The position numbers and the translations under genes are program-made. This document shows positions 2,194 to 55,098 of a DNA stretch of 64,000 nt, one piece after another. Position 1 is the stretch's first letter; each line of letters begins with the position of its first letter. The notes below the pieces were generated by a model. The model saw nothing but the letters and a program-made list of their open reading frames with translations. It ran no database searches and was not told the DNA's origin. Source of the stretch: a virus; the IMG/VR virus record IMGVR_UViG_3300045988_179268, positions 192,001 through 256,000 of that record; one strand, given 5' to 3'.

Positions 2194-3750
2194 GTGTTGG
2201 CGAAAAATCAGACGTACAGAGCTTTTACCGTGCGCCCGATGCATATTCTAGACCTGAACGGCGAACTAATGGACAGTGCATCTGTCATGTCCCAGCTTGC
2301 CGCTGAGGTTCGAGACATTTCAGCGTATGCCACTTACGTGGTTCGTAATGACACGAAGCTTGCGGCTGACCTGGCTCAGGTTACTGCTGTTCAGCCAGCG
2401 GTTGCGGGTCGTCGGGCGGGTGTGACCATGCCTAACTTCCTTGCGACAGGCAAGTCGGGTAGGTCGCGTAAAGAGTTTCTGGTTCAGCATAACGTAGTTA
2501 CAGCTTTCCGGTCATGGCAGGAACGCATTAAAGCCATCGAGGGCACCTCTTCCAAGTACGTTTCCCAGGGGTGGAGGCGTACTGTGGATACATCTGCACC
2601 CACGTATGGGGATGCTGATTTCATCAACTTGGGCGCTGTAGATAAGCAGTATGCGGTCATCGAGAATAACCCTGTCGCGGATGGCAAAATTGTCCTCAGG
2701 ATGGTAATTTGCGGTCAGTGGTATCGTCTGATTTTCCCCTTTGATAACTCACGGTTCCCTGAGGGTAAAGTAACTCTACCTGTCATTAAAGTTGAAAATA
2801 ATCAACCTGTTTTCATCTTCACGGTCGTTACTGATAACCCTATCATTCAGTTTTCGGGTGACTACACTATCGGTGTAGACGTTGGCATCAATGACTATGC
2901 TACTGTCGTTGTTCGCAACAGTGCTACAGGGCAGATAACCCGGAAAACCACGCTCTCTCAGCGTGTTCATTCGCTCTGGAACAGTGTTCGTGCGTCTGAA
3001 CGGCAGGTTCGCGCGCTTAATAATAAAGCAGATAAGCTTATCTATGACCGTCAGGCTCACATGTCTGCGTTTGATGAGGCTCAGTTTCATCGCGAGGCGG
3101 CTTCTCGTAAGAAACGTGAGTTGGCGATTCTTGTGGCGCAGGAAATTGCCTACCTATCTCACCGTTGGAATAACGCTGTTGTGGTGGTTGAAGACTTGGG
3201 GTGGATTCGCAATACCATGAGTAACGGCAGGTGGAATCGCGGTGCTTTCGTACAGTGGCTCACTCACTATGTCACCCAGAATGGTGGCTGGGTTGTCGCC
3301 GTGAATGCGTCTAATACATCCCAGGTATGCCATGTGTGCGGTGAAAAGGTCACCCATCCTGAGTACAAGGTTTCCATCTGCCCCGAGCACGGTGACATGG
3401 ATAGGGACGTTAATGCCGCCGCAAATATTGCCTCTAGAGCTGTCCCGAAGGTGGATAAAGCTCGTAAGACTCGCGCTAAGAACCGCAAGCTACAGCCACA
3501 GGCGGCTCTTAAGACTCCGCCTGCCCGCGAAACTCTAAAGTATCCCGGCAGGGATAGGACTAAAAATGTTCCTACTCCGAAGAGGAAGAACCGCATTTCT
3601 GAGGAGGTGAATCTCCCCTTTAGCCCCGCTAGGGTGAATATGACTACGGTACTAGCGGACTGCGACACATACGGTGCCGTGGAGACCTCTAAGGCGGCTA
3701 TCAATCAGGGTAATGTAACTCGCGAATATGGGTTATGTAGCCTAAATTGA
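2194..3750 (+). CDS. tnpB: TnpB/Cas12-like RNA-guided endonuclease family protein (518 aa)
   Basis: RuvC-I GVDVGIND, RuvC-II VVVEDL, zinc ribbon CHVCG..CPEHG, RuvC-III DRDVNAAANI; GGGAGGG RBS; basic C-terminal tail; no tnpA nearby. Confidence 0.8.
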   Translation: MLAKNQTYRAFTVRPMHILDLNGELMDSASVMSQLAAEVRDISAYATYVVRNDTKLAADLAQVTAVQPAVAGRRAGVTMPNFLATGKSGRSRKEFLVQHNVVTAFRSWQERIKAIEGTSSKYVSQGWRRTVDTSAPTYGDADFINLGAVDKQYAVIENNPVADGKIVLRMVICGQWYRLIFPFDNSRFPEGKVTLPVIKVENNQPVFIFTVVTDNPIIQFSGDYTIGVDVGINDYATVVVRNSATGQITRKTTLSQRVHSLWNSVRASERQVRALNNKADKLIYDRQAHMSAFDEAQFHREAASRKKRELAILVAQEIAYLSHRWNNAVVVVEDLGWIRNTMSNGRWNRGAFVQWLTHYVTQNGGWVVAVNASNTSQVCHVCGEKVTHPEYKVSICPEHGDMDRDVNAAANIASRAVPKVDKARKTRAKNRKLQPQAALKTPPARETLKYPGRDRTKNVPTPKRKNRISEEVNLPFSPARVNMTTVLADCDTYGAVETSKAAINQGNVTREYGLCSLN

Positions 3751-9707: not shown

Positions 9708-9711
9708 TTAC

Positions 9712-9757
9712 AATTCACCCCTCTATGACTAAGCTTCATAGAGGGGTGAATTGTTTC
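9712..9757 (+). terminator. hairpin terminator
   Basis: perfect 17-bp stem AATTCACCCCTCTATGA/TCATAGAGGGGTGAATT. Confidence 0.6.
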
Positions 9758-9773
9758 CATACACTCGCTAATC

Positions 9774-9784
9774 TGTGGTACAAT
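9774..9784 (+). promoter_or_regulatory. promoter motif
   Basis: TGTGGTACAAT. Confidence 0.65.
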
Positions 9785-9824
9785 TATTTCTGTAAGGAAT
9801 TTTAGGCAACAGAAAGGCATAGTC

Positions 9825-10763
9825 ATGGAACTTTCCCACGAGGAAATCGCAGACGCTATGCACGACCACTACCGTGAACTCACGCGACTTGAGTATAGTC
9901 TCGTCAGCGTAAGCCTTGAAGCAAGTAAGGCACTCAAGCACTACACGGCAATTATTACCAAATCCATCAACCTCATGGGGTCAGGTCAGTGGTACCCCTG
10001 GCAGGAAGACCGCCACCTACGCATGGTCTGGGCAGTAGTGAAGCAAACTCTCTACAAGACCGACCACTACATCCACCACCTACACAACGACATGAGTGAA
10101 ATGCTCACTAACTGGCATGAAAACTCCAACTGCGTTGAAACGTGCCAGCTTCTACTAGAAGAAGCTGAACAGTATGCGACCACTCGCTTCATTAAAAACG
10201 CTAAGCAGGTCATCCACCGCTGGAAAAACGTTTCACCCATCATTGACGAGATTCTATCCCAGGAGCGTGTACAGCCAGCCGAATACCCACTAGAGGTTCA
10301 CTGCGACGACTACATCACAATGATTAAGGGGTACCTGGAAGCAATGGATGCGGCTACCGACGGAATGATTCAAGCCATGAACATTGTCCGGCGCACAAAG
10401 ACCGTGTACGACCTATGGGATGCTGAGACAATCAACATGAGCACCGGGAAGCCATACCGCAACCGGCAGTACATCCACGACTTCCTCAAGCTTTTCAATT
10501 ATGCGGCAAATGATTCATACCATGAGTACCTGAACGCCCACCATGAGATTCTTTTCTGTTCCGAGACATACAGTCTAGGCGGTGGCTGGGCTGACAACCC
10601 GGAAGGGTTCGCCGGTCGCCTGGAACGCATCACTAAATGGCAGAACGAAAGCCCTGCCATCACTGTAGAAAGTGCAACTAAGGACTTGCGACGCTACAAG
10701 GAATGGTACCCTGACATGCTTAATCTGGTGAATGAAATCGCGGAGAATAATGGGTTTTATTAG
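9825..10763 (+). CDS. hypothetical protein
   Basis: ATG after GAAAGG, promoter at 9774-9784; a diverged copy of its last 59 nt lies at 10981-11039. Confidence 0.65.
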   Translation: MELSHEEIADAMHDHYRELTRLEYSLVSVSLEASKALKHYTAIITKSINLMGSGQWYPWQEDRHLRMVWAVVKQTLYKTDHYIHHLHNDMSEMLTNWHENSNCVETCQLLLEEAEQYATTRFIKNAKQVIHRWKNVSPIIDEILSQERVQPAEYPLEVHCDDYITMIKGYLEAMDAATDGMIQAMNIVRRTKTVYDLWDAETINMSTGKPYRNRQYIHDFLKLFNYAANDSYHEYLNAHHEILFCSETYSLGGGWADNPEGFAGRLERITKWQNESPAITVESATKDLRRYKEWYPDMLNLVNEIAENNGFY

Positions 10764-10789
10764 GGAAATAAACTAAAACCATTAAAATC

Positions 10790-10800
10790 TGTGATATTAT
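10790..10800 (+). promoter_or_regulatory. promoter motif (drives E1)
   Basis: TGTGATATTAT, 9 nt upstream of E1 P1. Confidence 0.6.
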
Positions 10801-10809
10801 ATTCGATAA

Positions 10810-10979
10810 CACCTCGCCCGTGAGAGACAGGAGAGGTGGATAATCTAAACGGGTAGGTAGCTTCGGTTGCCTGTCAAGACCAGGAAAGTTAGCCCTCTTG
10901 GGTTAGCTGGAGGGTCACCGTCAGGGCGAAGCCCTGGCTCATCCCCTGGGTGGCTCTCCCTTACACACGGGGATGACTC
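10810..10979 (+). ncRNA. E-module E1 (stand-alone transcription unit)
   Basis: own promoter at 10790-10800. P1 CACCTCGCCCGT/ACAGGAGAGGTG, AAACGG, AAGACCAGGA, GGAGGGTCACCGTC, P4 CAGGGC-GAA-GCCCTG. Ends CTCATCCCCTGGGTGGCTC plus TCCCTTACACACGGGGATGACTC. Bidirectional terminator at 11071-11125. Confidence 0.7.
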
Positions 10980-10980
10980 A

Positions 10981-11039
10981 GGTATGCCGACTTGCTAAAT
11001 CTAGTGAATGAAATAGCCGAAAATAACGGGCTTTAATCA
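10981..11039 (+). repeat. orphan diverged copy of the last 59 nt of gene 9825..10763
   Basis: ungapped alignment to 10705-10763 gives 45/59 identical. 8 of 14 differences are synonymous third positions. It reads YADLLNLVNEIAENNGL-stop against YPDMLNLVNEIAENNGFY-stop. Confidence 0.75.
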
Positions 11040-11070
11040 CCCGACCATATACTACACTCTCCGGCAGTGC

Positions 11071-11125
11071 ATAATAAATGGGAAAACCAATCAATGTAAT
11101 TTTGATTGGTTTTCCCATTTATTAT
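11071..11125. terminator. bidirectional hairpin between convergent units
   Basis: stem of about 24 bp, ATAATAAATGGGAAAACCAATCAA/TTGATTGGTTTTCCCATTTATTAT. Confidence 0.65.
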
Positions 11126-11141
11126 AGGCTAGTCGCCTACT

Positions 11142-11958: not shown

Positions 11959-12084
11959 GAGGTGTTTCTTCTCTGAGTTGTTTATTGTGCATGTAGTCCC
12001 AGCCTATTGGCTGATGGCTTTATGTATATTATTTTAGCATAGGAGGTTTACCTAAAAACTTTATTCATGCACTAACAGGAAAAA

Positions 12085-48036: not shown

Positions 48037-48046
48037 AAAAATATCA

Positions 48047-48189
48047 CACCTCGCCTGTGAGAGACGGGAGAGGTGGATAATCTAAACGGATAGGTGGCAT
48101 CGGTTACCTGTCAAGACCAGGATAACTGGCATCAGACAGTTTGAGGGTCACCGTTAAGGAAAATCCTTAACTCATCTACCGAATGACTC
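48047..48189 (+). ncRNA. E-module E2
   Basis: begins 11 nt after the -10 at 48026-48036; P1, TCTAAACGG, TCAAGACCAGGA, TTGAGGGTCACCGT, P4 GTTAAGGA-AAA-TCCTTAAC; ends CTCATCTACCGAATGACTC. Confidence 0.7.
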
Positions 48190-48231
48190 TGGGTAATACG
48201 GATTAGCGGGGTAATCACCCTTGCCAGGAAG

Positions 48232-48333
48232 CGTATTCTCCGTACACGCGGGGATGACTCCGGTTTCTGCCCCGTAAATGGGTTAGCCTCATGGCACGCC
48301 GCATCGTATTCTCCGTACACGCGGGGATGACTC
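48232..48333 (+). CRISPR. two identical type I-E-like repeats, non-canonical 44-nt interval
   Basis: CGTATTCTCCGTACACGCGGGGATGACTC at 48232-48260 and 48305-48333 (29/29 identical); the interval itself contains a degenerate repeat, TTTCTGCCCCGTAAATGGGTTAGCCTC. Confidence 0.5.
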
Positions 48334-48447
48334 TATAAACGGGTGGGCAACATTCGTGTCGCACGTCAAGACCAGGAGAGTTAGGTAACTAGCTTGAGGG
48401 TCACCGCCTAGTGAAACACTAGACCCACCCCGCGCAGGGGATGGCTC
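48334..48447 (+). ncRNA. E-module E3 (lacks P1; a full repeat sits in its place)
   Basis: TATAAACGG, GTCAAGACCAGGA, TTGAGGGTCACCG, CTAGTG-AAA-CACTAG; ends CCCACCCCGCGCAGGGGATGGCTC. Confidence 0.65.
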
Positions 48448-48568
48448 CCCGAGTCAGCAACAGGCAACCCAGACATCTTAACCGCGTTCCCTATATACGC
48501 GGGATGACTCACAGGCTCACCCTCACATACTCGCTGGGTGGATTCTCCAACATACGTAGGGCTGGCTC
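48419..48568 (+). CRISPR. mini-array: E3 terminal repeat plus two degenerate repeats
   Basis: repeat ends at 48447, 48510 and 48568 (periods 63 and 58 nt); repeats CGCGTTCCCTATATACGCGGGATGACTC and GGATTCTCCAACATACGTAGGGCTGGCTC. Confidence 0.45.
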
Positions 48569-48604
48569 ATACCAGGTGTGTGACACAGATAACACAAAAT
48601 CAGG

Positions 48605-48634
48605 TTGCGTACCATGAAAAACATGTGGTACACT
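48605..48634 (+). promoter_or_regulatory. tRNA/E operon promoter
   Basis: TTGCGT, 18-nt spacer, TGTGGTACACT; upstream palindrome TGTGTGACACA. Confidence 0.7.
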
Positions 48635-48718
48635 TGATATATAAGGCGCGGGGGTTTGAGAAAGCCGCCAATGCAAAGCTCATTGATAACTATATAGGGT
48701 AAAAACTATTGAACATAA

Positions 48719-48802
48719 GCCGCAGTGCCTGAGTTTGGAAAAAGGGGCTGACTGTAAATTAGCTGTCGTTCGACTACGGGGGTTCAAATCCCTCCTGCGG
48801 CA
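48719..48802 (+). tRNA. tRNA-Tyr(GTA)
   Basis: acceptor GCCGCAG/CTGCGGC, anticodon arm GCTGA-CTGTAAA-TTAGC, long variable arm, T-loop TTCAAAT; no encoded CCA. Confidence 0.85.
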
Positions 48803-48831
48803 CGCAACACATCATTAAGATGTGTTCTATA

Positions 48832-48990
48832 TACCTCGCCTGTTGGTGAGATGGGAGAGGTAGTAAAAATAAACGGGTAGGCAACAGTGTTTGTCACGCC
48901 AAAACCTGAAAAGCAGGTTATAGCCACAGGGCAATCTGGGCGCTCCTTGACCGTGCAACAAGGGGTCACCAAAAATCAAAGCACGGGTAT
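48832..48990 (+). ncRNA. E-module E4 (divergent variant)
   Basis: P1 TACCTCGCC..GGGAGAGGTA and AATAAACGGG are conserved; the central part is replaced by other hairpins; GGGGTCACC is retained; 3' end unclear. Confidence 0.4.
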
Positions 48991-49020
48991 GTTCAACACG
49001 TCAGCATAATTGAGTGCTGT

Positions 49021-49174
49021 GACCTCGACCTGCGAGGGGCGGGGAGGTCGAAAAAATAAATGGGCAGGCGGCTACCAGCTATCCTGTCAAGACCAGGAAG
49101 GCTGACGACAGTCAGCTGGAGGGTTACCGTCTAGTGAAACGCTAGACCCAACTCATATAGAGGAAATCCGGCTC
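49021..49174 (+). ncRNA. E-module E5
   Basis: P1 GACCTCGACCTGC/GCGGGGAGGTC (compensatory changes), TCAAGACCAGGA, GGAGGGTTACCGTC, P4; terminal hairpin CTC-ATATA-GAG covaries with CCC..GGG in other copies. Confidence 0.7.
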
Positions 49175-49260
49175 AGTATATATCAGGGGTCACTTTCCCA
49201 TACACGCGAGGATGGCTCCATAGCGGGATGGTTGAAACCTCCCTACATGCGGGATGGCTC
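49146..49260 (+). CRISPR. degenerate repeat cluster after E5 (13-15-nt intervals)
   Basis: repeat-like units end at 49174, 49218 and 49260; ..CCCATACACGCGAGGATGGCTC and ..CCCTACATGCGGGATGGCTC. Confidence 0.35.
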
Positions 49261-49287
49261 CCGCAACAAAATAATACGAAACCAGGC

Positions 49288-49316
49288 TTGCAAACCACAA
49301 AAACATGTGGTACACT
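49288..49316 (+). promoter_or_regulatory. tRNA/E operon promoter
   Basis: TTGCAA, 17-nt spacer, TGTGGTACACT. Confidence 0.7.
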
Positions 49317-49327
49317 GGTTTACATAG

Positions 49328-49398
49328 GCCCATCTAGCTTAATGTAAAGCAACAGTCTTCAAAACTGTGAGATGTCGGTTCAAGTCCGGCGGTGGGTG
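49328..49398 (+). tRNA. tRNA with UCA anticodon (UGA-reading; suppressor or Trp-like)
   Basis: acceptor GCCCATC/GGTGGGT, D arm GCTT/AAGC, anticodon arm ACAGT-CTTCAAA-ACTGT, T arm GTCGG-TTCAAGT-CCGGC, discriminator G. Confidence 0.8.
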
Positions 49399-49447
49399 CT
49401 TGCAAGTAACAAAACCGGAGTTCTAGCCGAAAGTGGCGTAACTTGCG

Positions 49448-49529
49448 GCGTGTAATGACCACGAAGGCAAGTGGCGAGCCCAGTTAGAATGGGCACGTAA
49501 TAGTAGGGGTCGGTTCCCTTCTACACGCT
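49448..49529 (+). tRNA. non-canonical tRNA-like element, possible pseudo-tRNA
   Basis: perfect 7-bp terminal stem GCGTGTA/TACACGC and an anticodon-like arm GCCCA-GTTAGAA-TGGGC (TAG), but the D and T arms do not fold canonically. Confidence 0.3.
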
Positions 49530-49534
49530 CTACA

Positions 49535-49674
49535 CTCCTCGTCTGCGAGAGATTGGGAGAGGAGGATAATAAAAACGGGCGCTAACCGCGTCAAGACCAG
49601 GAAAGCCAACGATAGTCAGCTTGAGGGTCACCGTCTAGTGAAACACTAGACCCAGCCCACGTAAGGGGCGGCTC
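49535..49674 (+). ncRNA. E-module E6
   Basis: P1 CTCCTC../..GAGGAG (compensatory changes), AAAAACGGG, TCAAGACCAGGA, TTGAGGGTCACCGTC, P4; ends CCCAGCCCACGTAAGGGGCGGCTC. Confidence 0.7.
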
Positions 49675-49728
49675 AAGAGCAGTGCTTTTACACAGCAAAG
49701 GTCGTGGGTTCAAATCCCTCACGAACCA
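49675..49728 (+). pseudogene. 3' fragment of a Tyr-type tRNA abutting E6
   Basis: GTCGTGGGTTCAAATCCCTCACGAACCA matches the T arm and acceptor 3' strand pattern of the Tyr tRNAs, but no complementary 5' acceptor strand lies upstream. Confidence 0.5.
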
Positions 49729-49756
49729 CACTTGGTACCCTTTTATAGGGCATCAA

Positions 49757-49829
49757 GTCTCTTTAGCTCAGATAGTAGAGCGCCCGCCTGAAGAGCGGGA
49801 GGTCGCCAGTGCAAGCCTGGCAGGAGACA
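49757..49829 (+). tRNA. tRNA-Phe(GAA)
   Basis: acceptor GTCTCTT/AGGAGAC, anticodon arm CCCGC-CTGAAGA-GCGGG, T arm GCCAG-TGCAAGC-CTGGC. Confidence 0.85.
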
Positions 49830-49861
49830 CGTAAGCCCACCTATTTTTTCGGTGGTGCATT

Positions 49862-50004
49862 ACCTCTCGCCTGTGAGAGACGGGAGAGAGTGAAAACGGA
49901 CGGGCGGCTTCGGTTGCCTGTCAAGACCAGGAGAATTAACTTCGGTTAATTTGAGGGTTACCGTCTAGTAAAATACTTAGACCCACCCATGTATGGGAAG
50001 GCTC
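49862..50004 (+). ncRNA. E-module E7
   Basis: all conserved blocks present; P3 AATTAAC-TTCG-GTTAATT; ends CCCACCCATGTATGGGAAGGCTC. Confidence 0.7.
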
Positions 50005-50064
50005 ATCCAGTCTACAGCTAAGAAAGCGCGCGGTGCAGTATTTCTTATATACACGGGATGGCTC
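49976..50064 (+). CRISPR. one-spacer unit after E7
   Basis: terminal repeat ends at 50004, 33-nt spacer 50005-50037, repeat GTATTTCTTATATACACGGGATGGCTC at 50038-50064. Confidence 0.45.
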
Positions 50065-50202
50065 TCTTACAGTCTGGTTCCTTTTTTGCGCCCATGTGGG
50101 CTGACTGGGAATTACTTATATGAAGAAAGAAGAGATGTGGCATCACTAACATGCACTGCTTTATCTCTGTTTTTTCAGTGACACAGATAACACAAAATCG
50201 AG

Positions 50203-50232
50203 TTGCAAACCACGAAAAACATGTGGTACACT
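50203..50232 (+). promoter_or_regulatory. tRNA/E operon promoter
   Basis: TTGCAA, 18-nt spacer, TGTGGTACACT. Confidence 0.7.
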
Positions 50233-50314
50233 TTATATATGAGACGTGAGGGCTTGAAAGAGTCCCCGACGCAAAAGCTCATTGAAAACCTTATAGAGTA
50301 AACTATTTAATCAA

Positions 50315-50398
50315 GCCGTTGTATCCAAGTGGTCAAAGGAAACTGTCTGTAAAACAGTCGCTATCGAAGCTTCGTGGGTTCGACTCCCTCCGGCGGCA
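50315..50398 (+). tRNA. tRNA-Tyr(GTA), second copy
   Basis: acceptor GCCGTTG/CGGCGGC, anticodon arm ACTGT-CTGTAAA-ACAGT, long variable arm, T-loop TTCGACT. Confidence 0.85.
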
Positions 50399-50469
50399 CG
50401 AGACACATTACTAGAATGTGTTTAGCTACATCATCTATACGTGCTATAGTTGTTGCAGTAAATATTTTT

Positions 50470-50540
50470 GGCGTACTAGTTTAGTGGTAAAACCTCAGTC
50501 TTCCAAACTGATGATACGGGTTCGATTCCCGTGTACGCCT
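50470..50540 (+). tRNA. tRNA-Gly(TCC)
   Basis: acceptor GGCGTAC/GTACGCC, anticodon arm TCAGT-CTTCCAA-ACTGA, T arm ACGGG-TTCGATT-CCCGT, discriminator T. Confidence 0.85.
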
Positions 50541-50544
50541 CTAT

Positions 50545-50683
50545 GCTCCTCGCCTGTGAGAGACGGGAGAGGAGCTAAATCTAAACGGACACTCACGTGT
50601 CAAGACCAGGAGAGTTGGGCAACCTACTCAAGGGTTACCGTCAAAGTAAAGCTTTGGCACGCTCCGCATAAGGTCGATGACTT
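50545..50683 (+). ncRNA. E-module E8
   Basis: starts 5 nt after tRNA-Gly; P1 GCTCCTCGCCTGT/ACGGGAGAGGAGC, TCTAAACGG, TCAAGACCAGGA, AAGGGTTACCGTC; degenerate end ..GGTCGATGACTT. Confidence 0.65.
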
Positions 50684-50818
50684 AGAGTAAGTATCTACAT
50701 GTTCTAAGTCATCGTGCGGGATTCGCGTCTCACTAAATCCTGCGTGTCTAAGGATTCTCCTTCTCATTAGAGAGACTATAGATGCGTTTTACATAATCTG
50801 AAATAACTAACACTTTAA

Positions 50819-50900
50819 GCGCTTGTGGCGGAATTGGCAGACGCGGCAGACTTAGAATCTGTTGTCAGCAGACGTGTGGGTTCGAGTCCCACCAGGCGCA
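50819..50900 (+). tRNA. tRNA-Leu(TAG)
   Basis: acceptor GCGCTTG/CAGGCGC, anticodon arm GCAGA-CTTAGAA-TCTGT, long variable arm, T arm GTGGG-TTCGAGT-CCCAC. Confidence 0.85.
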
Positions 50901-50930
50901 CTTGGTGTCCACAAGTGCATGTGGGTGCCC

Positions 50931-51052
50931 GCTTCCGTATCCAAGCTAGGTTAAGGGGAGCGTCTTTCATGAGCCTTCTGCACATAACGGCTATGGGAGC
51001 GCTTGCGGTGCATGAGAGTGCCCGCGCGCCGGTTCAAATCCGGTCGGAAGCA
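50931..51052 (+). tRNA. over-long (122 nt) tRNA-like element, anticodon not assignable
   Basis: acceptor GCTTCCG/CGGAAGC and T arm GCCGG-TTCAAAT-CCGGT are canonical, with a plausible D arm; about 35 extra nt lie in the anticodon/variable region. Confidence 0.35.
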
Positions 51053-51084
51053 CGTAACGCCACCTACTATGGTGGCTTGTTACT

Positions 51085-51227
51085 CACCTCGCCTATGAGA
51101 GATGGGAGAGGTGAATAATCTAAACGGACACTAACCATGTCAAGACCAGGAGAACTAGCTTACGCTGGTTAGAGGGTCACCGTCTAACAAAATGTTTAGA
51201 CCCGCCTCGTATTTATGGGGTAGGCTT
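51085..51227 (+). ncRNA. E-module E9
   Basis: P1 CACCTCGCCTAT/ATGGGAGAGGTG (G-C to A-T compensation); all blocks present; ends CCCGCCTCGTATTTATGGGGTAGGCTT. Confidence 0.7.
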
Positions 51228-51309
51228 TCAGCCTCATTAGGTAACCTATTGAGGCACCCTTATTGCAATAGGGGAGCCTTCGGGCTTCTGGCTTTTATCA
51301 CTCATTCTT

Positions 51310-51339
51310 TTGCGAGATTGAGTGTTGGTGTGGTATACT
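51310..51339 (+). promoter_or_regulatory. tRNA operon promoter
   Basis: TTGCGA, 18-nt spacer, TGTGGTATACT. Confidence 0.65.
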
Positions 51340-51358
51340 TATCATGCTTACTCTTTAG

Positions 51359-51438
51359 GCGCTTGTGGCGGAACTGGCAGACGCGGCGGACTTAAAATCC
51401 GCTTCTTCGGAGTGTGGGTTCGAGTCCCACCTGGCGCA
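51359..51438 (+). tRNA. tRNA-Leu(TAA)
   Basis: anticodon arm GCGGA-CTTAAAA-TCCGC, long variable arm, T arm GTGGG-TTCGAGT-CCCAC. Confidence 0.85.
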
Positions 51439-51468
51439 CGCAACCACCCTTAACTGGGAGGTTTATAT

Positions 51469-51542
51469 TCCCTTGTAGCTCAATTGGCAGATGCGCCCGA
51501 CTGTTAATCGGGAGGTTACTGGTTCGAGTCCAGTCTGGGGAG
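51469..51542 (+). tRNA. tRNA-Asn(GTT)
   Basis: acceptor TCCCTTG/CTGGGGA, anticodon arm CCCGA-CTGTTAA-TCGGG, T arm ACTGG-TTCGAGT-CCAGT. Confidence 0.8.
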
Positions 51543-51594
51543 CTTACGTCACTTATGCGTGGCGTTGATACCTTAGCTTTTTTGTTAAGGTTCT

Positions 51595-51670
51595 GGTCTG
51601 TTAGCTCAGTGTTGGTTAGAGCACCGCCCTGTCACGGCGGAGGCCGCGGGTTCGAGCCCCGTACAGACCG
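51595..51670 (+). tRNA. tRNA-Asp(GTC)
   Basis: acceptor GGTCTGT/ACAGACC, anticodon arm CCGCC-CTGTCAC-GGCGG, T-loop TTCGAGC. Confidence 0.85.
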
Positions 51671-51692
51671 CGTATAGTTTTTTTGGCTATGC

Positions 51693-51831
51693 CTCTCGCC
51701 TGTGAGAGACGGGAGAGAGTAAAAACGGACAGGTAGCTTCGGTTACCTGTCAAGACCAGGATAGCGGGGTAACCTGCTTGAGGGTCACCGTCTGACAAAA
51801 TGTTAGACCCAGCCCACGTAGGGGATGGCTC
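51693..51831 (+). ncRNA. E-module E10
   Basis: follows tRNA-Asp; all blocks present; ends CCCAGCCCACGTAGGGGATGGCTC; followed by a 32-nt spacer and a full repeat. Confidence 0.75.
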
Positions 51832-51892
51832 CTTGGACTCGAAGTTTTGACGAATAGGGAGTCCGTTTTCCCAGCACACGCGGGAGTGGCTC
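51803..51892 (+). CRISPR. one-spacer unit with exact 29+32 nt geometry after E10
   Basis: terminal repeat ends at 51831, spacer 51832-51863 (32 nt), repeat CGTTTTCCCAGCACACGCGGGAGTGGCTC at 51864-51892; period 61 nt. Confidence 0.6.
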
Positions 51893-51932
51893 ACCGTGAC
51901 CTCCTGTGTGATACAGGTAACATAAAAACGGC

Positions 51933-51962
51933 TTGCATACCATAGAAACTATATGGTACACT
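51933..51962 (+). promoter_or_regulatory. tRNA operon promoter
   Basis: TTGCAT, 18-nt spacer, TATGGTACACT; upstream palindrome CCTGTGTGATACAGG. Confidence 0.65.
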
Positions 51963-52029
51963 TGCTATATATGGTTCGGGGAAACCTGAAAGACCGATAC
52001 GCTATTTCTTAATTGAATGAATTTTTTTT

Positions 52030-52103
52030 GCCTCCTTAGCTCAGTTGGTTAGAGCATCTGTCTTGTAAACAGAGGGTCGCCGGTTCGACTCCGGCAGGAG
52101 GCT
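52030..52103 (+). tRNA. tRNA-Thr(TGT)
   Basis: acceptor GCCTCCT/AGGAGGC, anticodon arm TCTGT-CTTGTAA-ACAGA, T arm GCCGG-TTCGACT-CCGGC. Confidence 0.9.
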
Positions 52104-52139
52104 CGCTAAAGTAGATAGTTTTACTGTTTGCTTTTATGA

Positions 52140-52212
<73 letters not shown>

Positions 52213-52242
52213 CTCACACGCCTGTTGCAGGTTGTGTGTTAA

Positions 52243-52315
52243 GCGCCTTTAGCTCAGTCGGTAGAGCAGTGGACTTTTAATCCTCGGGTCGCGGGTTCGA
52301 GCCCCGCAGGGCGCA
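52243..52315 (+). tRNA. tRNA-Lys(TTT)
   Basis: acceptor GCGCCTT/AGGGCGC, anticodon loop CTTTTAA, T arm GCGGG-TTCGAGC-CCCGC. Confidence 0.85.
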
Positions 52316-52552
52316 CGTAGCATGAAGGGATGTAGCTAATCCTTTCGTAATACACCGGATAAACACTATTCAGAAGGTCGTAGGTTAAAATCCTGCCACG
52401 TGCCACATTGCACGTGTAGCTCGGTGTTATAAGAGCGTCTGGACGGTGCCGGTTTAAGCCATACACAGGGGAAGTGACCTACACACTTCCATAGGGGTAG
52501 CGCCCCGGCTGTCTTGTAGGATAAGGGTACCTCTTAGCGGGGGTGCTCTCAT

Positions 52553-52628
52553 GGTCTGTTAGCTCAGTGTTGGTTAGAGCACCGCCCTGTCACGGCGGAG
52601 GTCGCGGGTTCAAGTCCCGTACAGACCG
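52553..52628 (+). tRNA. tRNA-Asp(GTC), second copy
   Basis: near-identical to 51595-51670; T-loop TTCAAGT. Confidence 0.85.
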
Positions 52629-52666
52629 CTTATATGGCGCACTGACCGCCTAAATAGTCAGTCTAA

Positions 52667-52740
52667 GCCCTTGTAACTCAGCTGGTTAGAGTGCCGCTCT
52701 GATAAGGCGGATGCCGGTGGTTCAAGTCCACCCAAGGGCA
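52667..52740 (+). tRNA. tRNA-Ile(GAT)
   Basis: acceptor GCCCTTG/CAAGGGC, anticodon arm CCGCT-CTGATAA-GGCGG, T arm GGTGG-TTCAAGT-CCACC. Confidence 0.9.
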
Positions 52741-52742
52741 CT

Positions 52743-52814
52743 GTGTGTGAAGCCGGATAGCGAGGCGCTTGCTTGTGGCGCAAGTAGTAGCGGGTGCGAT
52801 TCCCGTCACACACC
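52743..52814 (+). tRNA. tRNA-His(GTG)
   Basis: acceptor GTGTGTG/CACACAC, anticodon arm CTTGC-TTGTGGC-GCAAG, T arm GCGGG-TGCGATT-CCCGT, discriminator C. Confidence 0.85.
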
Positions 52815-52816
52815 CC

Positions 52817-52891
52817 GCTCCCCTAGTTCAGTCTGGATAGAACGCCGTGCTACGAACGCGGAGGTGGCAGGTTCAAATCCTGCGGGGAGCA
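52817..52891 (+). tRNA. tRNA-Arg(ACG)
   Basis: acceptor GCTCCCC/GGGGAGC, anticodon arm CCGTG-CTACGAA-CGCGG, T arm GCAGG-TTCAAAT-CCTGC. Confidence 0.9.
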
Positions 52892-52924
52892 CGTAACAGC
52901 ACCTATTATGGTAGTGTGTTATAT

Positions 52925-53070
52925 ACCTCGCCTGTGAGAGACGGGAGAGGTGGTAAATCTAAACGGATAGGTGGCATCGGCTACCTGTCAAGACCAGGAT
53001 GGCGGGGCAACCTGCTTGAGGGTCACCGTCTAGTGAAACACTCAGACCCAACCCACATAAGGGAAAACGT
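52925..53070 (+). ncRNA. E-module E11
   Basis: follows tRNA-Arg(ACG); all blocks present; degenerate end CCCACATAAGGGAAAACGT. Confidence 0.65.
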
Positions 53071-53120
53071 AAGGTGAATCTATTTTGCGGCTTGACCCGG
53101 TATTAAGCCTAGTCAGGAAG

Positions 53121-53205
53121 ATTTTTCCCTACGCATGTGAGGCTGGCTCTACTCAGCCTAACATGCGTAGGCGACGTTTTCTCCGTACACGCGAGGGGAT
53201 GGCTC
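53121..53205 (+). CRISPR. two degenerate repeats after E11
   Basis: ATTTTTCCCTACGCATGTGAGGCTGGCTC at 53121-53149 and GTTTTCTCCGTACACGCGAGGGGATGGCTC at 53176-53205; 26-nt interval; the first repeat and the interval form a long inverted repeat. Confidence 0.4.
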
Positions 53206-53288
53206 CGGCTAGGATACGCCCTTCAAGGCGGCGCTACTTTCTTTACATACATAGAAAGTCAGCTTTTATCAATATGCTCACAACATAT

Positions 53289-53361
53289 GCCCCCATCGTC
53301 TAGATGGTTAGGATACTACCCTTTCAAGGTAGAGATGCGGGTTCGAGTCCCGTTGGGGGTA
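53289..53361 (+). tRNA. tRNA-Glu(TTC)
   Basis: acceptor GCCCCCA/TGGGGGT, anticodon arm CTACC-CTTTCAA-GGTAG, T arm GCGGG-TTCGAGT-CCCGT. Confidence 0.85.
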
Positions 53362-53496
53362 CGCAAGCTTCAAGAGTTATATTTGTAGCTTTTGGAAGCT
53401 GGCATGGGGTCATGCTGTTTTTATAGTTATGGTCACAATTTAACCTTTCGTTACATCGAGTAGCGGCTCGCCGTCTTGTTGGTTGCCGCTATTCTT

Positions 53497-53570
53497 ATCC
53501 CAGTAGCTCAGTGGATAGAGCGCCCGCCTCCTAAGCGGGGTCGTCACAGGTTCGACTCCTGTCTGGGATA
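53497..53570 (+). tRNA. tRNA-Arg(CCT)
   Basis: acceptor ATCCCAG/CTGGGAT, anticodon arm CCCGC-CTCCTAA-GCGGG, T arm ACAGG-TTCGACT-CCTGT. Confidence 0.85.
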
Positions 53571-53604
53571 CTTTTAGGTAAACCTGTTTTTTAGGTTTAC
53601 CGTT

Positions 53605-53677
53605 GCCTCCTTAGCTCAGCGGATAGAGTACCCGATTCCGAGTCGGGTGGTCACAGGTTCGATTCCTGTAGGAGGCG
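53605..53677 (+). tRNA. tRNA-Arg(CCG)
   Basis: acceptor GCCTCCT/AGGAGGC, anticodon arm CCCGA-TTCCGAG-TCGGG, T arm ACAGG-TTCGATT-CCTGT. Confidence 0.85.
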
Positions 53678-53678
53678 C

Positions 53679-53750
53679 GTCCCCGTGGTCTAATCGGGAG
53701 GATGCCGCTCTCTCAAGGCGGCGATGCGGGTTCGAGTCCCGTCGGGGGTA
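53679..53750 (+). tRNA. tRNA-Glu(CTC)
   Basis: acceptor GTCCCCG/CGGGGGT, anticodon arm CCGCT-CTCTCAA-GGCGG, T arm GCGGG-TTCGAGT-CCCGT. Confidence 0.8.
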
Positions 53751-53874
53751 CGCTCATGCGCGGCTTTTTGTTGCGTGTGTTGTGGTGACTTTCGGTAGTT
53801 ACCTTTTTTGTACGGCTTGGGCTGGGTTTGGTTTTTCCTCACTTTTGCCTTACTCAGGTTTCTGGTCGTGTTTC

Positions 53875-53947
53875 GCGCTTTTAGCTCAGTTGGTAGAGCA
53901 AGGGACTCTTAATCCCTGGGTCGCGGGTTCGAGCCCCGCAGGGCGCA
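53875..53947 (+). tRNA. tRNA-Lys(CTT)
   Basis: acceptor GCGCTTT/AGGGCGC, anticodon arm AGGGA-CTCTTAA-TCCCT, T arm GCGGG-TTCGAGC-CCCGC. Confidence 0.85.
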
Positions 53948-53977
53948 CGTAGCACATTCCTTTTGGGTGTGTTTACT

Positions 53978-54128
53978 CACCTCGCCTGTGAGGGACTGGG
54001 AGAGGTGGCTAATCTAAACGGATGGGTAGCTTTGATTGCCTGTCAAGACCAGGAGAATCTGCCTTTGGTGGGTTTGAGGGTCACCGTCTAATAAAATATT
54101 AGACCCAACCCTGTGCAGGGGATGGCTC
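53978..54128 (+). ncRNA. E-module E12
   Basis: follows tRNA-Lys(CTT); all blocks present; ends CCCAACCCTGTGCAGGGGATGGCTC. Confidence 0.7.
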
Positions 54129-54175
54129 GACAAAAAAGTCAGGCGGTGTTTTCCCTGTATACGCGGGGATGACTC
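54100..54175 (+). CRISPR. E12 terminal repeat plus one repeat, 18-nt interval
   Basis: repeat TGTTTTCCCTGTATACGCGGGGATGACTC at 54147-54175. Confidence 0.4.
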
Positions 54176-54206
54176 ACCGCTAATATGTACAATTCCATAC
54201 CTTTTT

Positions 54207-54279
54207 GCCCTAGTAGCTCAGGGGATAGAGCAGTCGCCTTCTAAGCGATTGGTCGCAGGTTCGAATCCTGCCTGGGGCA
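54207..54279 (+). tRNA. tRNA-Arg(TCT)
   Basis: acceptor GCCCTAG/CTGGGGC, anticodon arm GTCGC-CTTCTAA-GCGAT, T arm GCAGG-TTCGAAT-CCTGC. Confidence 0.85.
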
Positions 54280-54306
54280 CGCTATATGCCTCAAGGTGTG
54301 TCGCAA

Positions 54307-54459
54307 CACCTCGCCTGTGAGGGACTGGGAGAGGTGGTTAATCTAAACGGGTGGGTGGCTTTGGTTGCCTGCCAAGACCAGGAAAGCTGGCTTCGGTCAG
54401 TTTGAGGGTCACCGTCAAAGTAAAACTTTGGCTCATCTACCGCATAAAGTGAATGGGAA
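54307..54459 (+). ncRNA. E-module E13
   Basis: follows tRNA-Arg(TCT); all blocks present; end of the E2 type, CTCATCTACCGCATAAAGTGAATGGGA. Confidence 0.7.
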
Positions 54460-54495
54460 ATGTGGGTTGGCGAGGTGTTTATCCTTGTCAATAAG

Positions 54496-54638
54496 GATTT
54501 TCCCCGTACACGCGGGGATGGCTCCTGGACCCTCAAACTTGCTAGAGTAGAGCACGTATTTTCCCCGTACACGCGGGGATGGCTCTAACGTCAAGCCTAT
54601 TAGCGTTTACGTTTTCCCTTGTATGCGTGGGGTGACTC
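54496..54638 (+). CRISPR. three-repeat, two-spacer type I-E-like mini-array
   Basis: R1 54496-54524 and R2 54557-54585 are 28/29 identical (ATTTTCCCCGTACACGCGGGGATGGCTC). Spacer 1 is 32 nt (period 61). Degenerate terminal repeat at 54610-54638 after a 24-nt spacer. Confidence 0.65.
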
Positions 54639-54669
54639 ACAATAACCCTTTTATATATTCACAACATAT

Positions 54670-54743
54670 GCCCCCGTGGTCTAATTGGTCAGGATGCCAC
54701 TTTCTCAAGGTGGGTGGTACGGGTTCGAGTCCCGTCGGGGGTA
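54670..54743 (+). tRNA. tRNA-Glu(CTC), second copy
   Basis: acceptor GCCCCCG/CGGGGGT, anticodon arm CCACT-TTCTCAA-GGTGG. Confidence 0.8.
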
Positions 54744-54775
54744 CGTTCATGCGCGGTTTTTGTTGCGTGTGTTTT

Positions 54776-54848
54776 GCGCTTTTAGCTCAGTTGGTAGAGC
54801 AACGGACTCTTAATCCGTGGGTCGCCGGTTCGAGTCCGGCAGGGCGCA
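54776..54848 (+). tRNA. tRNA-Lys(CTT), second copy
   Basis: anticodon arm ACGGA-CTCTTAA-TCCGT, T arm GCCGG-TTCGAGT-CCGGC. Confidence 0.85.
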
Positions 54849-54878
54849 CGTAGCACATTCCTTTTGGGTGTGTTTACT

Positions 54879-55029
54879 CACCTCGCCTGTGAGGGACTGG
54901 GAGAGGTGGCTAATCTAAACGGATGGGTAGCCTTTGGGTTGCCTGTCAAGACCAGGAAAATTAGCTTAGGCTGATTCGAGGGTCACCGTCTGGCAAAATG
55001 GCAGACCCACCCTTTGTAGGGGGCGGCTC
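54879..55029 (+). ncRNA. E-module E14
   Basis: follows the second tRNA-Lys(CTT); near-duplicate of E12; ends CCCACCCTTTGTAGGGGGCGGCTC. Confidence 0.7.
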
Positions 55030-55098
55030 AGTGTTTGAGAATGAGGGTTGCGCCCTCAGCGAGTATTTCCCGTAAATATAATTACTATTTCACATTGT

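What the first reader, a model, noticed from the sequence alone, without database searches (positions are those of the whole stretch)
10705..11039. Stand-alone E-module flanked by a diverged allele of the neighbouring gene's 3' end (homing or cassette-transfer scar)
Gene 9825..10763 ends with allele A (10705-10763). It is followed by a promoter, E1, and, immediately after the repeat handle (..GGGGATGACTC, ending at 10979), allele B (10981-11039). B is 45/59 identical to A with no gaps. 8 of the 14 differences are synonymous third-position changes, and B keeps its own stop codon. B therefore evolved as coding sequence in a relative and is not a decayed local duplicate. B occupies the position a spacer or guide would hold. 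An RNA reading repeat-plus-B would match the uninterrupted B allele in competitor genomes. The resident A allele has 6 mismatches across the first 32 nt. This fits RNA-guided targeting of a rival allele followed by recombinational copying of the cassette, a gene-drive-like homing logic comparable to TnpB or homing-endonuclease behaviour.
Basis: partly seen in the sequence, partly recalled or inferred. Interest (0 to 1): 0.85.

Follow-up and report, generated by a model that had tools for sequence, protein, structure and literature searches.

The report
Phage guide-RNA gene aimed at rival allele
A 221-base, protein-free cassette in a jumbo phage encodes a Cas12n-type single-guide RNA whose guide position holds a displaced rival version of the neighbouring gene's end, an arrangement that could let the phage cut competing relatives and copy the cassette into them.

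Summary
A (10705-10763) and B (10981-11039) are 45/59 identical without gaps, and B matches nothing else in the window.

Four relatives lack the cassette. In them the gene ends in a B-type tail, and two of them also share the window's flank after the stop, so B is a real displaced allele.

The "E-module" is a homologue of the Cas12n (CRISPR type V-N) tracrRNA scaffold, fused to one CRISPR repeat. A covariance model of 29 modules hits Rothia chromosomal Cas12n loci at the 3' end of the gene, ahead of CRISPR arrays with near-identical repeats. Related phages place a Cas12n-like gene next to E-modules.

B starts exactly where the 20-nt guide starts. In empty alleles that position follows AAT, which fits the AAH PAM of RdCas12n. 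Two other scaffold-to-target junctions in relatives are also PAM-adjacent.

One filled/empty pair is identical over more than 1.1 kb except for a 278-nt indel.

Weak points: no Cas12n gene in the window, no perfectly matching target (best 2-3 mismatches), and gain cannot be told from loss. RNA-guided targeting of rival alleles is the best reading. Homing is plausible but unproven.

The parts
9825..10763 (+). Resident gene of 312 aa, function unknown. Its last codons, TAT TAG, are completed by the left end of the cassette.
   Evidence: The ORF was listed. Homologues at 62-100% identity were found. There was no Pfam or PHROG family match.
10702..10704 (+). AAT directly 5' of the tail segment. 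This is the PAM-like triplet, and it is present in all alleles.
   Evidence: RdCas12n accepts AAH as a PAM (PMC12216341).
10705..10759 (+). Copy A, the functional tail of the resident gene. It has 5 mismatches to the 20-nt guide, at positions 5, 6, 8, 12 and 17.
10760..10980 (+). The cassette proper (221 nt). It is absent from the empty alleles and contains no ORF of 50 aa or more.
   Evidence: The alignment with L001-L004 shows a clean gap. ORFs were listed. The cassette is 94-95% identical among three haplotypes whose flanks are only 68-90% identical.
10785..10800 (+). Phage-type promoter motif AAATCTGTGATATTAT, of extended -10 type.
   Evidence: The motif occurs 10 times against 0.02 expected, always on the + strand.
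10811..10948 (+). E1 scaffold core, stems 1-4, homologous to the Cas12n tracrRNA.
   Evidence: The covariance-model hit scores 134 bits, E 1e-34, over the full model. Covariation was seen in 18 of 31 pairs. The same model hits the 3' ends of Rothia Cas12n genes.
10939..10946 (+). Anti-repeat TCATCCCC, which pairs with GGGGATGA at 10969-10976 to form stem 5.
   Evidence: Fold. Rothia loci carry the same CTCATCCCC: GGGGATGAG logic.
10951..10980 (+). Single CRISPR-repeat homologue, TGGCTCTCCCTTACACACGGGGATGACTC plus the -1 base A. The CTC at 10977-10979 is the proposed pseudoknot partner of GAG in the stem-1 loop.
   Evidence: Repeat family D11. The pseudoknot is described in PMC12216341.
10981..11000 (+). 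The 20-nt guide position, GGTATGCCGACTTGCTAAAT.
   Evidence: The register follows from homology to RdCas12n crRNA. The nearest targets are 2-3 mismatches away, all preceded by AAT.
10981..11039 (+). Copy B, the displaced B-type gene tail with its TAA at 11034-11036. It runs on into the native downstream flank and would serve as the right homology arm.
11071..11125 (.). Long perfect hairpin between convergent genes. It is the probable bidirectional terminator that ends the E1 transcript.
   Evidence: The sequence is. The hairpin was picked up by miRNA-precursor models.
2194..3750 (+). Divergent TnpB-superfamily ORF of 518 aa. It is a possible, unproven effector and is not a Cas12n ortholog.
   Evidence: Pfam finds only a Cas12f1-like TNB domain. 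Only the TNB/RuvC-III region aligns with the Cas12n profile.
48043..55030 (+). Thirteen further E-modules with mini repeat-spacer arrays, interleaved with tRNA genes. They belong to the same RNA family as E1.

Best explanation
E1 is a promoter-driven natural single-guide RNA gene of the Cas12n (CRISPR type V-N) family. It consists of a tracrRNA-like scaffold (stems 1-4), an anti-repeat, one repeat, one -1 base, and then the guide.

The guide is the first 20 nt of a displaced B-type allele of the neighbouring gene's 3' end. In relatives the equivalent sequence follows an AAT PAM inside the functional gene.

The RNA would be loaded into a Cas12n nuclease supplied in trans. The source could be a phage copy elsewhere in the genome or, as with archaeal virus mini-arrays, the Rothia-type host. 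It would direct cleavage of co-infecting relatives whose tail allele matches. The resident A tail would escape through 5 mismatches, three of them in the seed.

The cassette is bracketed by the gene body plus A on the left and B plus native flank on the right. Repair of a cut rival from the resident genome would therefore copy A and the cassette into it.

Shown here:
- the anatomy and the RNA family;
- the guide register;
- PAM adjacency;
- the existence of B-type alleles;
- the filled/empty polymorphism.

Inferred, not shown:
- loading by a nuclease;
- cleavage;
- exclusion of rivals and allele conversion.
For: 1. **RNA family.** The covariance model R1, built from 29 modules, has 18 of 31 pairs with compensatory changes. 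It hits Rothia chromosomal Cas12n loci across the gene's stop codon, at E 8e-15 and 1e-12. That is where Cas12n tracrRNAs are reported to lie (PMC12216341). CRISPR arrays follow, and their repeat GTGTTCCCCGTATGCGCGGGGATGAGCCC resembles the phage handle.
2. **Effector link.** In related phages an E-module begins about 20-25 nt after the stop of a 520-aa protein. That protein matches RdCas12n (PDB 9J09) at E 4e-172.
3. **Register.** The three bases before -1 pair with the stem-1 loop. They read UUC:GAA in the R. dentocariosa type, GCC:GGC in the R. mucilaginosa type, and CUC:GAG in the phage. This puts guide base 1 at 10981.
4. **PAM.** AAT precedes the protospacer in all alleles.
5. **PAM-adjacent junctions.** Three independent scaffold-to-target junctions are PAM-adjacent in the rival allele.
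   - CTC-A|GGTA..., with AAT (window, L035).
   - CTC-T|AACGGATTCTAG, with AAT (L005/L036 against L012).
   - CTC-T|GGACATAG..., with AAA (L008/L009 against L007/L010, a single PAM-distal mismatch).
   - The local AAH frequency is 2.5-10%, so the joint chance is about 2e-4.
6. **Conservation.** The cassette is 94-95% conserved while its flanks are 68-90% identical, and the guides differ between haplotypes.
7. **Filled/empty pair.** L035 and L014 are identical over more than 1.1 kb apart from a 278-nt indel bounded by a 23-nt direct repeat.
8. **Expression.** E1 has its own promoter motif, and its scaffold score is the third highest of the 14 modules.
Against: - No Cas12n ortholog lies in the window. 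The syntenic place beside the tRNA array is occupied by another gene. The only TnpB-like ORF is very divergent.
- No sampled allele matches the guide exactly. The best are 2 mismatches (L012, L014, and the left tail of L035) and 3 (L001), each with at least one mismatch in the first 8 nt.
- The PAM of the phage enzyme is unknown. AAH is taken from the 54-58% identical Rothia enzyme.
- A fourth junction, E-module 49536-49674 fused to a tRNA-Val fragment, is not AAH-adjacent in L015, where the triplet is GGT.
- Nucleotide diversity at the target is raised (0.21 against a mean of 0.11) but ranks only 69th of 920 windows.
- Distant relatives already carry an E-module at the syntenic site. Empty alleles may therefore be deletions between A and B rather than naive targets.
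Confidence: 0.45

Rival explanations
1. Passive recombination scar. E1 is a working tracrRNA or sgRNA scaffold gene, but B is only the leftover native gene end. The cassette and the A tail were brought in, or shuffled, by ordinary homologous and illegitimate recombination among highly mosaic phages. The RNA's 3' extension has no targeting role.
For: - The region is strongly mosaic, and the nearest relative changes every 200-400 nt.
- The L014/L035 difference is explained most simply by deletion between 23-nt direct repeats.
- No exact target was found.
- B carries two changes seen in no other allele, at positions 23 and 51. Both lie outside the guide, which is consistent with decay.
Against: - It does not explain why three independent junctions fall exactly one base after the repeat and exactly 3' of an AAH triplet in the rival allele.
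- It does not explain why the two tail copies in L035 differ at 5 of the first 20 positions but at only 1 of the next 35.
Confidence: 0.25
2. RNA anti-CRISPR decoy. The phage lacks Cas12n and floods the cell with scaffold-plus-repeat RNAs, 14 copies in this window, that sequester the host's Cas12n in non-productive complexes. On this reading the sequence after the repeat is irrelevant.
For: - No Cas12n lies in the window.
- The host-type scaffold and repeat are recognisably similar.
- Virus-encoded single repeat units acting as RNA anti-CRISPRs are a known kind (review PMC11656645).
- There are many copies inside a highly expressed tRNA array.
Against: - Close relatives encode their own intact Cas12n-like gene among the same modules and keep repeat-spacer arrays.
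- The PAM-adjacent junctions and the near-perfect L008-guide/L007-target pair imply that the guide sequence matters.
Confidence: 0.15
3. Non-autonomous IS200/IS605-type mini-element. A-tail plus cassette is a mobile unit inserted 3' of a TAM (AAT) by a TnpA acting in trans, and the right flank becomes the guide, as for TnpB omega RNA.
For: - The geometry is that of TAM | element | guide-flank.
- Cas12n is an early TnpB derivative whose RNA overlaps the gene end (PMC12216341).
- An IS605-orfB-I RNA is present elsewhere in the window.
Against: - The serine recombinase next door is of the resolvase/invertase type. The ten neighbouring ORFs and ten large ORFs that were scanned gave no Y1-transposase match, but not every ORF in the window was scanned.
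- By eye, the left end of the cassette has no subterminal hairpin.
- The element would have to carry a copy of its own target.
- Gain and loss are seen to go through homologous repeats.
Confidence: 0.05
4. Decaying relic. E1 is the stranded edge of the large E-module/tRNA array after a genome rearrangement and is no longer used.
For: In the L007-type phages the resolvase, the 312-aa gene and the E-modules sit at the head of the array, beside Cas12n. In the window that block lies 37 kb away from the array.
Against: - The promoter is intact and the covariance-model score is the third highest of 14.
- The cassette is better conserved than the neighbouring coding sequence, with compensatory stem changes between haplotypes.
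Confidence: 0.05

Closest known systems
Type V-N CRISPR-Cas12n guide RNAs (RdCas12n of Rothia dentocariosa, PDB 9J09/9UDI; PMC12216341)
   Same: - The scaffold is homologous, with covariance-model hits at the 3' end of Rothia Cas12n genes.
- It has five stems and a 3'-end-to-stem-1 pseudoknot.
- The repeat has the same type.
- The guide lies 3' of the repeat.
- The 5' PAM is A-rich.
- Phage relatives encode a protein matching RdCas12n at E 4e-172.
   Different: - Here the tracr part and the repeat are fused naturally in one gene with its own promoter.
- There is a single repeat and no array.
- No cas gene lies nearby.
- The guide is not an acquired spacer but the contiguous native flank, a displaced allele of the neighbouring gene.
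TnpB/IscB omega-RNA homing in IS200/IS605 transposons (Meers et al. 2023; preprint PMC10055086; PMC10690162)
   Same: - The guide is whatever DNA abuts the 3' end of the scaffold.
- The empty site carries the TAM/PAM plus target.
- The cut is repaired from the filled copy, so the element is maintained or spread.
   Different: - The cassette contains no nuclease gene, no transposase and no transposon ends.
- It carries a substitute gene end (A), so that insertion inside a coding sequence is harmless.
- The arena would be co-infecting phage genomes rather than sister chromosomes.
Virus-borne mini-CRISPR arrays in interviral conflicts (SPV1/SPV2; Medvedeva et al. 2019, PMC6858448)
   Same: - These are promoter-driven guide units without cas genes in a virus, with host-like repeats.
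- The spacers are directed at close relatives.
- The targets lie close to the array.
- The carrier's own locus is protected by point mutations.
- Spacers turn over at a fixed position.
   Different: - This case is type V-N rather than type I/III, and the tracr scaffold is included.
- There is no leader-repeat-spacer-repeat unit.
- The guide is continuous with the flank and doubles as a homology arm.
- Only near matches (1-3 mismatches) have been found so far.
Free-standing phage homing endonuclease genes and marker exclusion (T-even seg/mob genes; from general knowledge, not checked here)
   Same: - An allele-specific cut in a co-infecting relative.
- Co-conversion of flanking markers.
- The resident allele is resistant through sequence differences.
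   Different: Recognition would be by RNA, and the cassette encodes no protein.
RNA anti-CRISPRs / solitary repeat units in phages (reviewed in PMC11656645)
   Same: A phage-encoded repeat-bearing RNA without a cas gene.
   Different: E1 contains the complete tracr scaffold plus a PAM-adjacent target-like 3' segment. A decoy needs neither.

Membership tests
Cas12n (type V-N) tracrRNA/sgRNA scaffold | Sequence and structure homology to the RNA encoded at or over the 3' end of Cas12n genes. | tested here: met
   Model R1 hits L050-L053 at 4011-4155 (gene ends 4129; E 8e-15). It hits L045-L049 at 4056-4215 (gene ends 4189; E 1e-12). E1 itself scores 134 bits.
Cas12n (type V-N) tracrRNA/sgRNA scaffold | Multi-stem architecture supported by covariation: five stems, with stem 5 formed by anti-repeat and repeat. 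| tested here: met
   In stems 1-4, 18 of 31 pairs show compensatory changes. Stem 5 is TCATCCCC:GGGGATGA in the fold, and Rothia loci show the same logic.
Cas12n (type V-N) tracrRNA/sgRNA scaffold | Pseudoknot between the bases just 5' of the guide (-4 to -2) and the stem-1 loop. | tested here: inconclusive
   Three matching variants were read by eye: UUC:GAA, GCC:GGC and CUC:GAG. Within the phage modules the bases are invariant. No formal test was run.
Cas12n (type V-N) tracrRNA/sgRNA scaffold | Cas12n effector encoded next to the RNA. | tested here: not met
   tblastn finds no ortholog in the window. The feature is met in relatives L007, L015, L043 and L054. The other 255 kb of the contig were not examined.
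Cas12n (type V-N) tracrRNA/sgRNA scaffold | Target flanked by a 5' A-rich PAM (AAH for RdCas12n). | tested here: met
   AAT precedes the protospacer in all eight distinct alleles. AAT and AAA occur at the two other junction types. The PAM of the phage enzyme itself is not known.
CRISPR mini-array (virus-borne) | Repeat-spacer-repeat unit with a spacer of defined length. | tested here: not met
   There is one repeat only. B runs without a break into the native flank. True repeat-spacer units do exist in the 48-55 kb array.
CRISPR mini-array (virus-borne) | Spacer matches related viruses, and the carrier's own locus is mutated. | tested here: inconclusive
   The nearest alleles are 2-3 mismatches away and the resident allele is 5 away. 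The L008 guide against the L007 target shows 1 mismatch with PAM AAA.
IS200/IS605 TnpB-omega RNA transposon | TnpB inside the element, and TnpA or LE/RE hairpin ends. | tested here: not met
   The 221-nt cassette has no ORF of 50 aa or more. By eye, the left end has no hairpin. The adjacent recombinase is a resolvase/invertase.
IS200/IS605 TnpB-omega RNA transposon | Insertion 3' of the TAM, with the right flank serving as guide. | tested here: met
   The geometry is AAT | A-tail + cassette | B. This shows how it works, not that it is a member.
Homing endonuclease gene / group I intron | Encodes an endonuclease, or is a self-splicing intron. | tested here: not met
   There is no ORF and no Rfam intron or ribozyme hit, even at E up to 10.
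Diversity-generating retroelement (TR/VR pair) | Differences confined to adenines of the template repeat, with a reverse transcriptase nearby. | tested here: not met
   The 14 differences involve all four bases. The scanned neighbours include no RT domain.

The most novel reading that the evidence does not exclude
E1 is a natural, protein-free CRISPR gene drive. It would be a stand-alone single-guide RNA gene carrying its own homology arms and a recoded, cut-resistant copy of the target. It would spread between co-infecting jumbo phages using a Cas12n supplied in trans by another phage locus or by the Rothia host. The sister modules embedded in the tRNA array would be natural tRNA-gRNA polycistrons aimed at rival alleles.
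Probability: 0.3. Interest if true: 0.9.

Novelty: new variant of a known kind. Interest (0 to 1): 0.72.

Why it matters
If the mechanism holds, this is the layout that engineers use for homing gene drives: guide, flanking homology arms, and a recoded resistant copy of the target gene. It would have arisen naturally, in a form that needs no nuclease gene of its own.

It would extend RNA-guided selfish inheritance, known for TnpB/IscB transposons, to recombination between viruses. It would also extend virus-borne mini-CRISPR warfare from archaeal viruses with type I/III systems to jumbo phages of the human oral microbiome with type V-N.

Three further points follow.
- It offers a mechanism for the proximity of mini-array spacers to their targets, which the authors of the SPV1/SPV2 work left unexplained.
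- These are naturally fused tracr-repeat single guides for a miniature Cas12 that is used in genome editing.
- The hypothesis is directly testable with purified RdCas12n or the phage enzyme.

Tried and rejected
**Searches that found nothing**
- Rfam gave no family for 10700-11150 even at E up to 10. Only the terminator hairpin matched, as spurious miRNA hits.
- GenBank phages (INPHARED) gave no blastn match for 9000-12000.
- IMG/VR had no allele of the tail.
- None of 13 spacers from the fetched Rothia arrays matches the phage.
- The other guides of the window's array have no convincing protospacer in the sequences I held.

**Ideas considered and rejected**
- A DGR template/variable repeat pair: the differences are not adenine-specific.
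- A group I intron, a ribozyme, or a site-specific integration scar: no supporting feature was found.
- A tail remnant after the first E-module of the distant relative L007: the local alignment is not significant, since 33 of 500 shuffles reach its score.

**Searches for the effector**
- tblastn of the phage Cas12n-like protein against the window found only the TNB region of ORF 2194-3750.
- Profile comparison confirmed that this ORF is not a Cas12n ortholog.
- Look-ups of P0034 and P0010 did not land on the window's contig.

**Weak or uninformative tests**
- The target window is more diverse than average but is not an outlier, ranking 69th of 920.
- The recombination-tract analysis gave a mosaic with no clean co-conversion tract.
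Full report
**Origin of the window**

The window is identical to JGI metagenome 3300053491, contig Ga0557493_018680. That contig is 319 kb, and window base 1 lies at about contig base 192,001. It is a jumbo phage with no relative in GenBank phages. The nearest cellular homologues of the associated nuclease family come from Rothia, an oral actinobacterium, and the related contigs come from human oral and gut metagenomes. Rothia as the host is an inference.

**The observation**

A (10705-10763) and B (10981-11039) are 45/59 identical without gaps. The next-best match to B in the window is 31/59, so B is not a dispersed repeat.

The gene 9825-10763 is conserved in seven protein clusters. A promoter-like motif recurs ten times on the + strand of the window against 0.02 expected. 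One copy lies at 10785-10800, just before the structured element.

**B is a real allele**

Four groups of relatives lack the cassette.
- In L001-L004 and L042 the gene runs straight through a B-type tail (YADLLNLVNEIAENNGF*) into the same flank that follows B in the window (TAATCACCCGACC...).
- L012/L013/L041 have a B-type tail with a different flank.
- L014 has a B-type tail with a third flank.

Relative to these, the window carries an extra 10760-10980 plus a second copy of the 55-nt tail. The resident gene's final TAT TAG is created at the left junction.

**What the E-module is**

Rfam has no family for it. The window holds 14 copies: E1, and 13 among the 26 tRNA genes at 48-55 kb.

An alignment of 29 copies from the window and relatives gives four stems, and 18 of 31 pairs show compensatory changes.

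In more distant relatives the same gene is followed by the following, in order:
- two to five modules;
- a short repeat-spacer array, with repeat GTTTTCCCCGCACATGTGGGGGTGGCTC;
- in L007, a 520-aa TnpB-like gene.

That protein matches RdCas12n, the type V-N effector of Rothia dentocariosa (PDB 9J09), at E 4e-172. The structure paper describes these features (PMC12216341):
- a 170-nt tracrRNA that overlaps the ORF;
- a 40-nt crRNA;
- five stems and a pseudoknot;
- a guide at the 3' end;
- a 5'-AAC (more broadly AAH) PAM.

The covariance model built from the phage modules hits Rothia chromosomal Cas12n loci exactly across the stop codon, at E 8e-15 and 1e-12. CRISPR arrays follow there, and their repeat GTGTTCCCCGTATGCGCGGGGATGAGCCC resembles the phage handle. 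In three phage contexts a module starts about 20-25 nt after the Cas12n-like stop codon.

E1 is therefore a tracr-type scaffold (10811-10948), an anti-repeat (10939-10946), one repeat (10951-10979), one -1 base (10980), and then the guide position. In other words it is a natural single-guide RNA gene.

**Guide register and PAM**

In RdCas12n, bases -4 to -2 pair with the stem-1 loop.
- The R. dentocariosa-type locus reads UUC with GAA.
- The R. mucilaginosa type reads GCC with GGC.
- The phage modules read CUC with GAG.

They were made by eye and not tested formally.

This places guide base 1 at 10981, the first base of B. In every allele the corresponding sequence follows AAT, which falls within AAH.

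The 20-nt guide GGTATGCCGACTTGCTAAAT differs from the sampled alleles as follows:
- L012 and L014, which are empty, and the functional left tail of cassette-bearing L035: 2 positions;
- L001 (empty): 3 positions;
- the resident A allele and the other cassette-bearing functional tail (L005/L036): 5 positions, including 5, 6 and 8.

No exact target was found.

**The architecture recurs**

*Third haplotype (L035).* It has the same junction, CTC-A|GGTA, but a different guide. Its two tail copies differ at 5 of the first 20 positions and at only 1 of the next 35.

*L005/L036.* The scaffold is joined instead to TAACGGATTCTAG, the last 13 nt of an L012-type tail. In L012 that sequence follows AAT.

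*A different locus (L008/L009).*
- A module upstream of the resolvase gene ends CTC-T. It is followed by GGACATAGTATGGCACTAAGGA, a diverged tandem duplicate of the resolvase start.
- The resident copy has two mismatches and no PAM.
- The rival haplotype L007/L010 has AAA followed by the same sequence, with one PAM-distal mismatch.

Local AAH frequencies are 2.5-10%, so three PAM-adjacent junctions by chance is about 2e-4. One counter-example exists. The module at 49536-49674 is fused to a tRNA-Val fragment, and the intact counterpart of that fragment in L015 is preceded by GGT.

**Population evidence**

- The cassette is 94-95% identical among the three haplotypes. The 300 nt of coding sequence to its left is 86-90% identical, and the 150 nt to its right is 68-82% identical.
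- The region is a fine-scale mosaic.
- L035 (filled) and L014 (empty) are identical over more than 1.1 kb apart from a 278-nt indel. That indel is bounded by the perfect 23-nt repeat ATTGCCGAAAATAACGGGTTTTA. Gain or loss is therefore recent and goes through the tail repeats. The data do not give the direction. A single deletion explains the pair, and so does double-strand-break-primed copying.
- Clusters ending in FY, the mark of the cassette junction, hold 162 member sequences. The clusters without it hold 7. This is only weak evidence.
- Diversity at the target is about twice the gene mean but ranks only 69th of 920 windows.

**Mechanism proposed**

The E1 RNA, loaded on a Cas12n supplied in trans, would cut relatives whose tail matches the guide. 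The resident A tail would be immune through seed mismatches. Repair from the resident genome would use the gene body as the left arm and B plus flank as the right arm. This would install A and the cassette in the rival.

The steps from nuclease loading onwards are inference.

**Main weaknesses**

- No Cas12n lies in the window.
- The syntenic position is occupied by another gene.
- The TnpB-like ORF 2194-3750 is not an ortholog.
- There is no perfect target.
- The PAM is borrowed from a 54-58% identical enzyme.

**Rival readings**

The rivals are a passive recombination scar, an RNA anti-CRISPR decoy against host Cas12n, a mini-IS, and a stranded relic of the array.

**Comparison with known systems**

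- The RNA is a member of the Cas12n guide-RNA family. Homology, structure and PAM context are met, and effector adjacency is not met in this window.
- It works like TnpB omega-RNA homing (PMC10055086, PMC10690162).
- It also works like the virus-borne mini-CRISPR arrays of SPV1/SPV2. Those authors noted that spacers target regions next to the array and that the carrier's own locus is mutated (PMC6858448).
- It is not a transposon, a canonical array or a homing endonuclease gene.

I rate it a new variant of a known kind.

Noticed in passing
window 48043-55030: Thirteen Cas12n-type scaffold modules are interleaved with 26 tRNA genes. Many are followed by 1-3 extra repeat units with 25-44 nt spacers. 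This looks like a natural tRNA-guide RNA polycistron. No targets were found for these spacers in the sequences I held.
   Followed up: partly
window 49536-49735; L015:6587-6660: One module is fused directly to the 3' two-thirds of a tRNA-Val(tac). That tRNA is intact in relative L015. This junction is not AAH-adjacent, since the triplet is GGT.
   Followed up: partly
L008:1894-2165, L009:1-260 against L007:2130-2165, L010:310-345: A module upstream of the resolvase gene carries as its guide a 22-nt tandem diverged duplicate of the resolvase start. The rival haplotype has the same sequence after AAA, with one PAM-distal mismatch. This is the best guide-target pair I found.
   Followed up: yes
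window 16092-17644 (-): A strong Rfam hit to IS605-orfB-I RNA (196 bits) lies at 16092-16316. It sits just downstream of a 438-aa ORF that has no Pfam, PHROG or PDB sequence match. The ORF may be a very divergent or degenerate TnpB.
   Followed up: partly
window 2194-3750 (+): In this 518-aa ORF only the TNB zinc-ribbon/RuvC-III region (DRDVNAAANI) is recognisable. No scaffold module or known omega RNA lies next to it.
   Followed up: partly
window 4368, 10785, 17827, 19904, 24362, 27250, 37563, 40412, 47505, 59666: The conserved promoter-like motif AAAWNTGTGRTAYNNT occurs ten times against 0.02 expected, always on the + strand. At least seven copies lie shortly upstream of an ORF start.
   Followed up: partly
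window 49328-49399: ARAGORN calls a tRNA with anticodon TCA, which reads UGA. The homologous gene in L015 (6188-6260) is tRNA-Trp(cca). This may be a suppressor or recoding tRNA.
   Followed up: no
window 9000-9707 (+), compared with L007/L008/L015: A resolvase/invertase-type serine recombinase lies next to the locus. In relatives the block of resolvase, 312-aa gene and modules sits at the head of the tRNA array beside Cas12n. In the window it lies 37 kb away, which suggests a large rearrangement and loss of the nuclease gene.
   Followed up: partly
L045:4270-4870, L050:4200-4420: The repeats of the Rothia chromosomal Cas12n arrays look to me like type I-E repeats. This resemblance is from memory and was not checked. 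They are close to the phage repeats, so host Cas proteins might be able to load phage guides.
   Followed up: no
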